Positions 28,301 to 31,300 of a DNA stretch of 64,000 nucleotides are shown one piece after another (position 1 is the stretch's first letter; each line of letters starts with the position of its first letter). This DNA is from Escherichia coli. GTDB taxonomy: Bacteria; Pseudomonadota; Gammaproteobacteria; Enterobacterales; Enterobacteriaceae. The stretch lies in assembly GCF_030013205.1 (NCBI RefSeq), contig NZ_CP122648.1; one strand, written 5' to 3'. A program made the position numbers.

Positions 28301-31300
28301 GAATCGCGTCGATTGCTGGTGAATGCAAATAATGTATTGGCTCGGGTTGAACAAATAGGTCGGGGAGAAGCAGGGCGGATTGAACTCGGGGTTGTGGGAA
28401 CGGCAATGTGGGGACGGATGCGCCCGGTTATGCGGCGATTCCTTAGAGAAAATCCTAACGTTGAAGTTCTGTTTCGCGAAAAGATGCCTGCGATGCAAAT
28501 GGCCCTGCTGGAACGACGTGAACTCGATGCCGGGATCTGGAGAATGGCGACAGAACCACCGGCAGGTTTTACCAGCTTACGGTTGCATGAATCGGCGTTT
28601 CTGGTGGCGATGCCTGAAGAGCATCATCTCTCATCATTTTCCACCGTTCCGCTGGAAGCGCTACGTGACGAGTATTTTGTTACAATGCCGCCCGTGTACA
28701 CTGACTGGGATTTTTTGCAGCGAGTTTGCCAGCAGGTGGGATTTTCACCGGTTGTTATTCGCGAAGTTAATGAACCGCAAACGGTACTTGCCATGGTCAG
28801 TATGGGCATTGGTATCACATTGATAGCGGACAGCTACGCACAAATGAACTGGCCAGGTGTCATTTTCCGTCCGCTCAAACAGCGCATCCCTGCAGATTTA
28901 TATATTGTTTATGAAACACAGCAGGTGACGCCCGCGATGGTTAAGCTGTTGGCTGCATTGACACAGTAGGTGAGGAGACAGGAATTGCCGGAAATAGTAG
29001 TCTGCTAAGTGAAGCGCATCAGGCAATTTCGCAAATCGCAGATAGCAAAAAAGCGCCTTTAGGGCGCTTTTTTACATTGGTGGGTCGTGCAGGATTCGAA
29101 CCTGCGACCAATTGATTAAAAGTCAACTGCTCTACCAACTGAGCTAACGACCCGAAGTGGTGGGTGATGACGGGATCGAACCGCCGACCCCCTCCTTGTA
29201 AGGGAGGTGCTCTCCCAGCTGAGCTAATCACCCACTTCGGTACTTCACATTTTTACAAGAAATTTAGCTGGCGAGAAAGTGGTGGGTGATGACGGGATCG
29301 AACCGCCGACCCCCTCCTTGTAAGGGAGGTGCTCTCCCAGCTGAGCTAATCACCCACTTCTCAATTTCTTGCTACACGGCGGAGACTACATAAAGTAGTT
29401 GGTGGGTGATGACGGGATCGAACCGCCGACCCCCTCCTTGTAAGGGAGGTGCTCTCCCAGCTGAGCTAATCACCCCCGCTGTGTGGAGTCGCATTATAGG
29501 GAGAGTTCAAAATGAGTCAACGCATTTTCTAAAGAAATTGTTCGTTCGTCGTAAATTTAAGCAAGATGATCGCAAAACAGACCGTGTTGCGCAATTTGTC
29601 AACGAAAACAATAATGCGTAAGGTTGCAACCCGAACTACATTGAGGAATCAGGCGGGAGTGATAGAATATCGCCCACTCAATTTTTCCAGGATTTGCCGG
29701 TTGTCGGCATCTTTCTAAACGTAAGGCCATTTCATGAAAATCAAAACTCGCTTCGCGCCAAGCCCAACAGGCTATCTGCACGTTGGCGGCGCGCGTACTG
29801 CTCTTTACTCCTGGCTTTTTGCACGTAACCACGGCGGTGAGTTCGTGCTGCGTATTGAAGACACCGATCTTGAGCGTTCCACGCCGGAAGCTATCGAAGC
29901 CATTATGGATGGCATGAACTGGCTGAGCCTGGAGTGGGATGAAGGTCCGTACTACCAGACCAAACGTTTTGATCGCTACAACGCGGTGATCGATCAGATG
30001 CTGGAAGAGGGCACTGCTTATAAATGCTATTGCTCTAAAGAGCGCCTGGAAGCGCTGCGCGAAGAGCAAATGGCGAAAGGTGAGAAGCCGCGTTATGACG
30101 GTCGCTGCCGCCACAGCCATGAGCATCATGCTGATGATGAACCGTGTGTTGTACGTTTTGCTAACCCGCAGGAAGGTTCTGTTGTTTTTGACGATCAGAT
30201 CCGTGGTCCGATCGAATTCAGCAACCAGGAGCTGGATGATCTGATTATCCGTCGTACCGATGGTTCTCCAACCTATAACTTCTGTGTGGTGGTTGACGAC
30301 TGGGATATGGAAATCACCCACGTTATCCGTGGCGAAGACCATATCAACAACACGCCACGCCAGATCAACATTCTTAAAGCACTGAAAGCGCCGGTACCGG
30401 TTTACGCGCACGTTTCTATGATCAACGGCGATGACGGCAAAAAACTGTCCAAACGTCACGGGGCGGTCAGCGTAATGCAGTATCGTGATGACGGTTATTT
30501 GCCAGAAGCACTGCTGAACTATCTGGTGCGTCTGGGCTGGTCCCACGGCGATCAGGAAATCTTCACTCGTGAAGAGATGATCAAATACTTCACCCTGAAT
30601 GCCGTCAGCAAATCTGCCAGTGCGTTCAACACCGACAAGCTGCTGTGGCTGAACCATCACTACATTAACGCGCTGCCGCCGGAGTATGTTGCTACTCACT
30701 TACAGTGGCACATTGAGCAGGAAAATATCGATACCCGTAACGGCCCGCAGCTGGCTGATCTGGTGAAACTACTGGGTGAACGCTGCAAGACGCTGAAAGA
30801 GATGGCACAGAGCTGCCGCTATTTCTACGAAGATTTTGCTGAGTTCGATGCCGACGCCGCGAAAAAACATCTGCGTCCGGTAGCGCGTCAGCCGCTGGAA
30901 GTGGTTCGTGACAAACTGGCCGCGATTACTGACTGGACCGCTGAAAACGTTCATCACGCTATTCAGGCGACGGCGGATGAGCTGGAAGTGGGGATGGGTA
31001 AAGTTGGTATGCCGCTGCGTGTCGCCGTAACCGGTGCGGGGCAGTCTCCGGCGCTGGATGTTACCGTTCACGCAATCGGTAAGACCCGCAGTATCGAGCG
31101 TATCAACAAAGCGCTGGCTTTTATTGCTGAACGCGAAAATCAGCAGTAATTAGCGCATAAAAGATAAACGGCAGGAGAGATACCCCTGCCGTTTTTTTTA
31201 TCCGGTGCGCCGTAAAACCCCCTCCTTCAGGGCGGGGATATAAGGCGCGGTTTTCCACCTGACCAGGTGTTTGCTGTTGTTCAATGGATTGACGGATGGC

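What the first reader, a model, noticed from the sequence alone, without database searches (positions are those of the whole stretch)
29045..29480. Three identical tRNA-Val genes plus tRNA-Lys with divergent spacers
The three Val copies are identical over 76 nt, while the spacers differ in sequence and length (46 and 44 bp between Val copies, 4 bp between Val and Lys). This indicates concerted evolution of the tRNA bodies only. The array shares a bidirectional terminator with convergent xapR.
Basis: seen in the sequence. Interest (0 to 1): 0.15.

Follow-up and report, generated by a model that had tools for sequence, protein, structure and literature searches.

The report
E. coli valU tRNA operon
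This is the well-known E. coli valU-valX-valY-lysV transfer-RNA operon, an ordinary and already characterised feature, although its "divergent" spacers turn out to be conserved and to fold into helices that bracket the identical tRNAs.

Summary
Window 29078-29475 (minus strand) holds three identical 76-nt tRNA-Val(UAC) genes and one tRNA-Lys(UUU), with spacers of 44, 46 and 4 nt. A symmetric A6-hairpin-U6 terminator faces convergent xapR. This is the valU-valX-valY-lysV operon next to gltX, present in about 98% of 5,426 complete E. coli genomes. It is published as one ~440-nt transcript that RNase P cuts 3'->5'.

"Concerted evolution of the bodies only" is partly supported.
- For: in 59 Enterobacteriaceae arrays with orthologous spacers, five substitutions are shared by all three copies in one group of genera. 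Copy number also varies from 2 to 5, including within E. coli.
- Against: only 29 of 59 arrays have three identical copies. Copy-specific variants persist across genera. The E. coli sequence is unchanged in genera whose gltX differs by 13-17%. Purifying selection alone therefore explains the identity seen here.

The spacers are not freely diverging. They are more conserved than gltX third codon positions. They carry covarying leader-trailer helices around valU and valX, which I did not find described for this operon. These may relate to the ordered RNase P processing.

Verdict: already known, low interest.

The parts
29493..29520 (-). valU operon promoter, TTGACT-16 nt-TATAAT. It is divergent from gltX.
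   Evidence: Promoter scan gives 11 of 12 matches. The sequence is invariant across 57 Enterobacteriaceae arrays.
29476..29484 (-). 9-nt 5' leader ACACAGCGG. The published transcription start site is 9 nt upstream of valU. The leader is the 5' arm of helix hU.
   Evidence: Start site from PMC4176162. The leader pairs with S1 positions 18-26.
29400..29475 (-). valU, tRNA-Val(UAC), copy 1
29356..29399 (-). Spacer S1 (44 nt). It holds a hairpin at 29385-29399, the 3' arm of hU at 29374-29382 and the 5' arm of hX at 29357-29371.
29280..29355 (-). valX, tRNA-Val(UAC), copy 2
29234..29279 (-). Spacer S2 (46 nt). It holds the 3' arm of hX at 29256-29278, the conserved AGUACCGAAGU leader of valY, and GAAG at 29235-29238, which is complementary to CUUC.
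29158..29233 (-). valY, tRNA-Val(UAC), copy 3
29154..29157 (-). 4-nt spacer CUUC between valY and lysV
   Evidence: PMC4176162
29078..29153 (-). lysV, tRNA-Lys(UUU)
29047..29073 (.). Symmetric intrinsic terminator hairpin (A6-GCGCC-CUAAA-GGCGC-U6), 4 nt after the lysV CCA. The window holds a single copy. K-12-type strains have two copies flanking a 156-bp RtT unit.
   Evidence: Termination and RNase P removal on the tRNA side are published in PMC4176162.
28085..28969 (+). xapR, the convergent neighbour
   Evidence: ORF. RefSeq annotation of near-identical loci.
29734..31149 (+). gltX (glutamate-tRNA ligase), the divergent neighbour

Best explanation
The region is the E. coli valU-valX-valY-lysV tRNA operon.

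How it works:
- A strong sigma-70 promoter, divergent from gltX, drives one ~440-nt transcript. The transcript starts 9 nt before valU and ends at the hairpin after lysV. This is published for K-12, and the sequence features are confirmed here.
- RNase P alone separates the four tRNAs. It first cuts off the terminator and then works 3'->5'. Exonucleases trim the 3' trailers. This is published and was not tested here.

Why the three Val genes are identical:
- The main cause is that the tRNA body is almost frozen by purifying selection. This is inferred from identity across genera.
- On top of that, occasional unequal crossing-over and gene conversion between the tandem copies change copy number and spread variants. 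This is inferred from haplotype patterns and from copy-number polymorphism.

What the spacers are:
- They are not neutral filler. Each is conserved at its own position and pairs across its tRNA.
- The whole 9-nt leader pairs with S1 (helix hU). A hairpin follows the valU CCA. The valX leader pairs with the valX trailer (helix hX).
- I infer that these helices sequester the AU-rich spacers and the RNase P sites of the upstream tRNAs, and so contribute to the observed 3'->5' processing order.
For: Identity of the locus:
- tRNA calls.
- Gene order xapR / Lys-Val-Val-Val / gltX, with RefSeq annotation.
- At least 80% of the 901-nt query is held by 5,306 of 5,426 E. coli genomes.
- Promoter and terminator.

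Processing pathway, transcription start site and identity of all five Val(UAC) genes: PMC4176162.

Selection:
- Val bodies are 98.5-99.7% identical among 35 species with type I arrays. lysV is 99.3% identical across all 57 aligned arrays.
- For comparison, gltX is 84% identical overall and about 62% at third codon positions.

Recombination:
- A clean 122-bp one-unit deletion in strains L004 and L005.
- The S1 junction is present in 5,261 genomes, and the S2 junction in 5,181. Each has about 73 extra places.
- Arrays of 2, 4 and 5 copies occur in other genera.
- A five-substitution haplotype is shared by all copies of orthologous arrays.

Spacer helices:
- Cognate leader/trailer duplexes are more stable than non-cognate ones. 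For hX the means are -10.6 and -6.7 kcal/mol; for hU they are -11.1 and -8.4. No permutation out of 5,000 matched either.
- On a plain MAFFT alignment 89.3% of cells are paired, against 40-50% when the partner columns are slid. There are 95 double-change cells against 35 in shuffles (0 of 500), and G-U pairs occur only in the RNA sense.
- The unconstrained MFE fold of the 444-nt transcript contains all the helices. Pair probabilities are about 1 for hX, 0.86 for the S1 hairpin and 0.39 for hU. Shuffling the spacers gives z = -2.9.
Against: - No expression or processing data exist for this strain. The pathway is taken from K-12 work.
- The hY helix (GAAG/CUUC) is only 4 bp and has a pair probability of 0.08.
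- hU is almost invariant, with a single compensatory event in four related sequences.
- RNAalifold recovers only the inner part of hX. Otherwise it pairs acceptor strands of different copies.
- The count of pairs with compensatory change is only modestly above shuffles (16 against 12.6; 21 of 500 shuffles reach it). The sequences are phylogenetically related.
- The published model has RNase P cutting while the long trailers are still attached. Helix removal is therefore not known to precede cleavage.
- Zhu et al. explain the processing order by N(-1)N(-2) pairing with the RCCA end alone.
Confidence: 0.85

Rival explanations
1. The three bodies are identical because ongoing gene conversion, limited to the tRNA bodies, keeps homogenising them while the spacers drift freely.
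For: - A five-substitution haplotype is shared by all three copies in arrays with orthologous spacers.
- C27T and T4C/A69G are spread patchily among copies. For example, copies 2 and 3 are alike in L075 and L080.
- The U27:A43 variant of valY is present in the closest Escherichia relatives (L006, L008) but not in E. coli.
- Copy-number polymorphism shows that the copies do recombine.
Against: - The E. coli sequence is unchanged in many genera. lysV, which has no partner in the array, is just as conserved (99.3%).
- 30 of 59 arrays are heterogeneous.
- T59A has stayed confined to copy 1 in Klebsiella, Raoultella, Citrobacter and others.
- The spacers do not drift freely. S1 is 87.6% and S2 82.8% identical within type I arrays, against 64% for gltX third codon positions.
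Confidence: 0.3
2. The copies are identical because the triplication is recent in E. coli.
For: Tandem identical repeats are what a young duplication looks like.
Against: - The Val-Val-Val-Lys architecture occurs across Enterobacteriaceae, with position-specific and mutually different spacers. 59 of 80 loci hold a complete array.
- S1 and S2 share almost no sequence.
Confidence: 0.02
3. The leader-trailer complementarity of the spacers has no function. It is a by-product of AU-rich composition, shared ancestry or alignment.
For: - The sequences are related, so shuffle tests overstate significance (caveat).
- RNAalifold does not recover most of the helices.
- hY is too weak to matter.
Against: - At least eight different hX sequence versions keep their complementarity. 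Examples are AAGAAAUUGAGAAG/CUUUCUC..AAAUUUCUU, GCGCCUUCAGAUA/UAUCGAAAGCGC and AAGAGAUAAG/UUAUCUACUCUU.
- Non-cognate pairings are 4 kcal/mol weaker.
- Slid controls fall to 40-50% paired.
- The spacers are more conserved than synonymous sites.
Confidence: 0.2

Closest known systems
E. coli K-12 valU-valX-valY-lysV operon (Agrawal, Mohanty and Kushner 2014, PMC4176162; gltX/valU divergent promoters, Brun et al. 1990, cited from my own knowledge)
   Same: - The same genes, order, tRNA sequences, 44-nt and 4-nt (CUUC) spacers, promoter and terminator sequence.
- Over the aligned region the window differs from the K-12-type locus L003 only at scattered single bases.
   Different: - The window strain lacks the 156-bp RtT-like unit and the second terminator copy that K-12-type strains carry between lysV and xapR.
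- The paper gives the second spacer as 47 nt. I count 46 nt, both here and in the K-12-type locus.
[quoted passage not shown]
   Same: - Identical or near-identical Val tRNAs lie in one transcript separated by RNase P.
- Structure around the upstream tRNA is proposed to slow its cleavage. The spacer helices found here would act in the same way.
   Different: - The helices here are long-range leader-trailer pairings that enclose a whole tRNA, not local stem-loops.
- They are supported only by covariation and folding, not by kinetics.
[quoted passage not shown]
   Same: The Val(UAC) and Lys(UUU) sequences and the terminator sequence are the same, and RNase P also processes it 3'->5' (PMC4176162).
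   Different: - It has a different gene order and long 133-150-nt spacers.
- Its Val genes are followed by only 2-3 nt, so leader-trailer helices like hX cannot form there.
- I did not examine this locus.
Concerted evolution of bacterial multigene families (rrn operons, tuf genes)
   Same: Paralogues share lineage-specific substitutions, and unequal recombination changes copy number.
   Different: Homogenisation here is slow and incomplete. Because the genes are only 76 nt long and under very strong selection, most of the identity needs no conversion.

Membership tests
valU-valX-valY-lysV tRNA operon of E. coli | Three tRNA-Val(UAC) genes followed by tRNA-Lys(UUU), all on one strand | tested here: met
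valU-valX-valY-lysV tRNA operon of E. coli | Located between divergent gltX and convergent xapR, with a sigma-70 promoter upstream of valU | tested here: met
valU-valX-valY-lysV tRNA operon of E. coli | Transcribed as one ~440-nt precursor that RNase P separates 3'->5' | not testable with these tools
   Published for K-12. The window sequence from the transcription start site to the terminator is 444 nt.
Bidirectional intrinsic terminator | GC-rich hairpin flanked by an A tract and a U tract, so that both strands read hairpin then U run | tested here: met
   -19.1 kcal/mol on both strands, with six U after the stem on each
Bidirectional intrinsic terminator | Terminates transcripts arriving from both convergent genes | not testable with these tools
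   The tRNA side is published. Nothing was found for xapR. The terminator accompanies lysV where xapR is absent.
Concerted evolution by gene conversion or unequal crossing-over | Paralogues within a genome share substitutions that distinguish them from orthologues in other lineages | tested here: inconclusive
   Met for the five-substitution type II haplotype. Not met for T59A, which is confined to copy 1, or for T4C/A69G, which is confined to copy 2 in most arrays and found in copies 2 and 3 only in L075 and L080. 30 of 59 arrays are heterogeneous.
Concerted evolution by gene conversion or unequal crossing-over | Copy-number change by recombination between the repeats | tested here: met
   122-bp unit deletion. 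The counts imply about 80 more E. coli genomes with S1 than with S2, and about 70 extra junction places. Arrays of 2-5 copies in other genera.
Structured flanks acting as RNase P anti-determinants (valVW type) | Stable, conserved pairing that sequesters the 5' leader next to the cleavage site | tested here: met
   hU and hX by covariation and folding. RNAalifold gives only partial support.
Structured flanks acting as RNase P anti-determinants (valVW type) | Slower RNase P cleavage that is relieved by disrupting the structure | not testable with these tools
   Needs kinetics or in vivo Northern analysis
RtT / tRNA-linked repeat downstream of a tRNA operon | A ~126-nt RtT element plus a repeated tRNA 3' end and terminator after lysV | tested here: not met
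   No RF00391 hit in 27000-36000. The 156-bp unit present in L001, L003 and L004 is absent from the window.

The most novel reading that the evidence does not exclude
The two long spacers encode copy-specific, covarying leader-trailer helices. The whole 9-nt leader pairs with S1 around valU, and S1 pairs with S2 around valX. These helices clamp the ends of each of the identical tRNAs and hide the AU-rich spacers from RNase E. They also delay RNase P at the upstream sites until the downstream tRNA has been removed. This would give a structural basis for the unexplained 3'->5' processing order and for the protection of the nascent valU transcript. I did not find this described for this operon.
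Probability: 0.45. Interest if true: 0.35.

Novelty: already known. Interest (0 to 1): 0.15.

Why it matters
The locus itself is textbook E. coli biology, so confirming it adds little. Two modest points follow from the comparison.

1. Identity of tandem tRNA genes in one genome should not be read as evidence of concerted evolution. Here selection explains most of it, and conversion is episodic.

2. The spacers of this operon are conserved, structured RNA. If the leader-trailer helices are real in vivo, they offer a testable reason why RNase P processes this precursor from the 3' end. [quoted passage not shown]

Tried and rejected
- The simple terminator scan did not call the hairpin. Folding settled the question.
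- A first cloverleaf-constrained fold used a 77-character mask and gave a meaningless energy. It was redone correctly.
- RNAalifold on the whole-array alignment mostly paired acceptor strands of different copies and recovered only the inner part of hX. I report it as weak independent support, not as confirmation.
- The gltX neighbour-joining tree was too poorly resolved to date the haplotype switches.
- Literature searches for xapR/lysV bidirectional termination found nothing. Searches for papers on concerted evolution of E. coli tRNA genes found nothing directly relevant.
- Withers et al. 2006 (PMC1464854) is not held.
- I considered a recent triplication and rejected it because of the orthologous arrays in other genera.
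- I considered HGT replacement of the array as the origin of type II. I rejected it because the promoter and leader are identical and S1 and S2 remain homologous.
- Val genes of 75 or 77 nt in L011, L026 and L047 differ only by a one-base change in length. In L011 and L026 this lies in G runs. I treated them as probable sequencing errors.

Full report
**Observation**

ARAGORN finds five tRNA genes in the window. Four of them form a minus-strand cluster:
- tRNA-Val(UAC) at 29400-29475
- tRNA-Val(UAC) at 29280-29355
- tRNA-Val(UAC) at 29158-29233
- tRNA-Lys(UUU) at 29078-29153

Rfam's tRNA model scores them 65.9, 65.9, 65.9 and 79.2 bits. The three Val genes are identical over all 76 nt. Against the first copy, identity ends exactly at the mature termini. 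Copies two and three also share GAAGT upstream and CTT downstream.

Four nucleotides after the lysV CCA lies A6-GCGCC-CUAAA-GGCGC-U6 (29047-29073). It folds at -19.1 kcal/mol on either strand. The consensus terminator scan missed it.

**What it is**

The flanking ORFs are gltX (29734-31149, +, divergent) and xapR (28085-28969, +, convergent). A TTGACT-16-TATAAT promoter sits at 29520-29493 on the minus strand.

A 901-nt query over the locus matches 5,425 of 5,426 complete E. coli genomes. At least 80% of it is held by 5,306 of them. RefSeq annotates xapR, tRNA-Lys, three tRNA-Val genes and gltX there. This is the valU-valX-valY-lysV operon.

Agrawal, Mohanty and Kushner (PMC4176162) showed the following for K-12:
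- The operon is one ~440-nt transcript starting 9 nt before valU.
- RNase P alone separates it. RNase P first removes the terminator by a cut 2-3 nt after the lysV CCA, and then proceeds 3'->5'.
- The two operons share the same terminator sequence.

From the published start site to the end of the U tract the window sequence is 444 nt.

**Variation within E. coli**

The spacers are nearly invariant among strains. The S1 junction is at least 99% identical in 4,996 of 5,262 matching records. The S2 junction is at least 95% identical in all 5,182 matching records.

Two length polymorphisms exist.

1. Some strains (L004, L005) have two Val genes. They carry a clean 122-bp deletion of one Val gene plus the 46-nt spacer. 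The S1 junction is found in 5,261 genomes and the S2 junction in 5,181. Each has about 73 extra places in genomes with expanded arrays. A few per cent of strains have therefore lost or gained units.

2. K-12-type strains carry a 156-bp unit annotated "RtT sRNA" after lysV. It is bounded by a 60-bp direct repeat made of the last 18 nt of lysV plus the terminator. The window lacks this unit and so has a single terminator. No RtT match appears in 27000-36000.

**Comparison across genera**

GltX was used to fetch 80 Enterobacteriaceae loci. Of the three-copy arrays analysed, 59 (the window included) are complete Val-Val-Val-Lys arrays upstream of gltX. Others have 2, 4 or 5 Val genes, or are cut by contig ends.

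The promoter and the leader are almost invariant. S1 and S2 can each be aligned at their own position across genera. The triplication is therefore old and the arrays are orthologous copy by copy.

Mean pairwise identities:

| Region | All arrays | Type I arrays only |
|---|---|---|
| Val bodies | 95-96% | 98.5-99.7% |
| lysV | 99.3% | 99.5% |
| S1 | 64.5% | 87.6% |
| S2 | 59.9% | 82.8% |
| gltX CDS | 84% | 85.8% |
| gltX third codon positions | 62% | 64% |

**Concerted evolution**

Points in favour:
- A second Val haplotype (C16T, G20T, C32T, A38C, T59G) is present in every copy of the arrays of Enterobacter, Lelliottia, Leclercia, Buttiauxella, Cedecea, Atlantibacter and one Citrobacter freundii.
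- Because the spacers are orthologous, this needs either 15 parallel changes or homogenisation among copies.
- Patchy patterns of C27T and T4C/A69G, and the copy-number changes, point the same way.

Points against it as the reason for identity in this window:
- The E. coli sequence is unchanged in genera whose gltX differs by 13-17%.
- lysV, which has no partner in the array, is equally frozen.
- Only 29 of 59 arrays have three identical copies.
- T59A has remained confined to copy 1 across several genera. T4C/A69G is confined to copy 2 in most arrays and occurs in copies 2 and 3 in L075 and L080.

I conclude that purifying selection accounts for the identity seen here. Conversion is real but episodic.

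**The spacers**

They are not drifting. Reading the sequences revealed complementarity across each tRNA.

- **hU.** The entire 9-nt leader ACACAGCGG pairs with CCGCCGUGU in S1. The Cedecea group changes GCGG/CCGC to CCGG/CCGG, which preserves pairing.
- **S1 hairpin.** A 5-bp hairpin follows the valU CCA and covaries (ACUAC/GUAGU, CUCU/AGAG, UCCU/AGGA).
- **hX.** The last 15 nt of S1 pair with the first 24 nt of S2 around valX. At least eight different sequence versions keep this complementarity.
- **hY.** GAAG before valY matches the CUUC after it, with GAAA/UUUC in the other clade.

Quantitative support:
- An alignment-free test gives cognate hX duplexes -10.6 kcal/mol against -6.7 kcal/mol for non-cognate pairs. 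For hU the figures are -11.1 and -8.4. No permutation out of 5,000 matched either.
- On a plain MAFFT alignment 89.3% of cells pair, against 40-50% when partners are slid. Sixteen pairs show compensatory change, and there are 95 double-change cells against 35 in shuffles (0 of 500). There are many G-U pairs in the RNA sense.
- The unconstrained minimum-energy fold of the 444-nt transcript contains all four elements. Pair probabilities are about 1 for hX, 0.86 for the S1 hairpin, 0.39 for hU and 0.08 for hY.
- Shuffling the leader and spacers while fixing the cloverleaves gives z = -2.9.

Caveats:
- The sequences are related, so shuffle tests overstate significance.
- hU is nearly invariant.
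- hY is too short to count.
- RNAalifold recovers only inner hX. Otherwise it pairs the valU 5' acceptor strand with the valY 3' strand. That result also shows how ambiguous the folding register of three identical tRNAs is.

**Mechanism**

Shown by others: single transcript, RNase P dependence, 3'->5' order, and a negligible role for RNase E.

Proposed by others:
- Unfavourable N(-1)N(-2) pairing with the RCCA end. valU has GG, valX and valY have GU, and lysV has UC (PMC9433436).
- Flanking stem-loops enforce direction in valVW (PMC10731613).

Inferred here:
- The leader-trailer helices hide the AU-rich spacer segments from RNase E.
- They sequester the leaders of valU and valX, so that lysV and valY, with at most 4 bp, are cleaved first.
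- Each cleavage exposes a new 3' end, from which exonucleases could unzip the next helix.
- They may also keep each tRNA's two acceptor strands in register.

The 2014 paper states that the basis of the protection of the nascent transcript is unclear. I found no description of these helices.

**Terminator**

The structure is that of a bidirectional intrinsic terminator. Termination on the tRNA side is published. Use by xapR is untested, and a literature search found nothing.

The AUGU-hairpin module is conserved after lysV in many genera, with a compensatory change (A6GCGCC/GGCGCU6 to A5GGCGCC/GGCGCCU5). Yet xapR is the neighbour in only 16 of 58 loci. The terminator is therefore a part of the tRNA operon that xapR happens to face.

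**Verdict**

This is an accurate observation of a known, well-studied operon. The concerted-evolution reading is partly right, but this window does not demonstrate it. The only new element is the conserved spacer structure, a modest extension of a known principle.

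Noticed in passing
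window 29035-29078, compared with L001 479-634 and L003 488-643: K-12-type E. coli strains carry a 156-bp unit annotated 'RtT sRNA' after lysV. It is flanked by a 60-bp direct repeat made of the last 18 nt of lysV plus the terminator. The window strain lacks the unit and has one terminator. RtT-like sequence (GATTCGAACC...) follows the terminator in many other genera, so the window state may be a deletion between the repeats. About 12 of 29 sampled E. coli rows show the unit.
   Followed up: partly
window 33920-33995: There is only one tRNA-Ala(GGC) gene here. Other E. coli and Escherichia loci (L086, L006, L007) have two tandem copies 39 nt apart (alaX/alaW). This is a second tandem-tRNA copy-number polymorphism in the same window.
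   Followed up: partly
window 31403-32906: An IS200/IS605-family element lies between gltX and yfeD. It has a truncated Y1 transposase ORF (31403-31690, -, PF01797) and a 402-aa OrfB/TnpB (31698-32906, +, PF01385, PF07282, PF12323). It is absent from strain 19SZHZ886Rt (L086), where yfeD follows gltX directly.
   Followed up: partly
L010 6444-6634: In Escherichia sp. E1V33 the first of the two tandem Ala genes has anticodon TGC and the second GGC. This is a possible anticodon switch within a tandem pair.
   Followed up: no
L017 and L056 (S1/S2); L043 and L052 (extra copies): Several arrays are rearranged:
- Franconibacter helveticus has an S2-like spacer first and a hybrid spacer second.
- Klebsiella indica has a 165-nt S1, about 121 nt longer than in E. 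coli.
- Kosakonia sp. S29 has 4 Val copies with spacers of 45, 45 and 45 nt.
- Intestinirhabdus alba has 5 copies with spacers of 44, 41, 44 and 41 nt.
   Followed up: partly
L009, L012, L016, L020, L025, L036, L041, L044, L053, L057, L068 and others: Many draft-genome contigs end inside or right next to the Val array. I think this is because identical tandem tRNA genes break short-read assemblies, but I did not test it. Copy numbers taken from draft genomes are therefore unreliable.
   Followed up: no
L006 3425-3742; L008 3547-3622; L027: The closest non-coli Escherichia (MOD1-EC7003) has C27T+G43A in valY, a compensatory 27:43 pair, and C65A in valX. E. albertii, with 2 copies, has C27T+G43A in its Lys-proximal copy. 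Superficieibacter has it in copies 1 and 3. The patchy distribution suggests that the allele moves by conversion.
   Followed up: no
window 29234-29246 (3' end of S2); alignment A1 columns 272-283: The valY leader AGUACCGAAGU is almost invariant across all genera, far more than the rest of S2. The 4-bp hY pairing does not explain this.
   Followed up: no
window 27886-28044: RefSeq annotates a 52-aa ORF between xapB and xapR as a DUF1427 family protein in a near-identical strain. My Pfam scan gave no hit at E <= 0.001.
   Followed up: no
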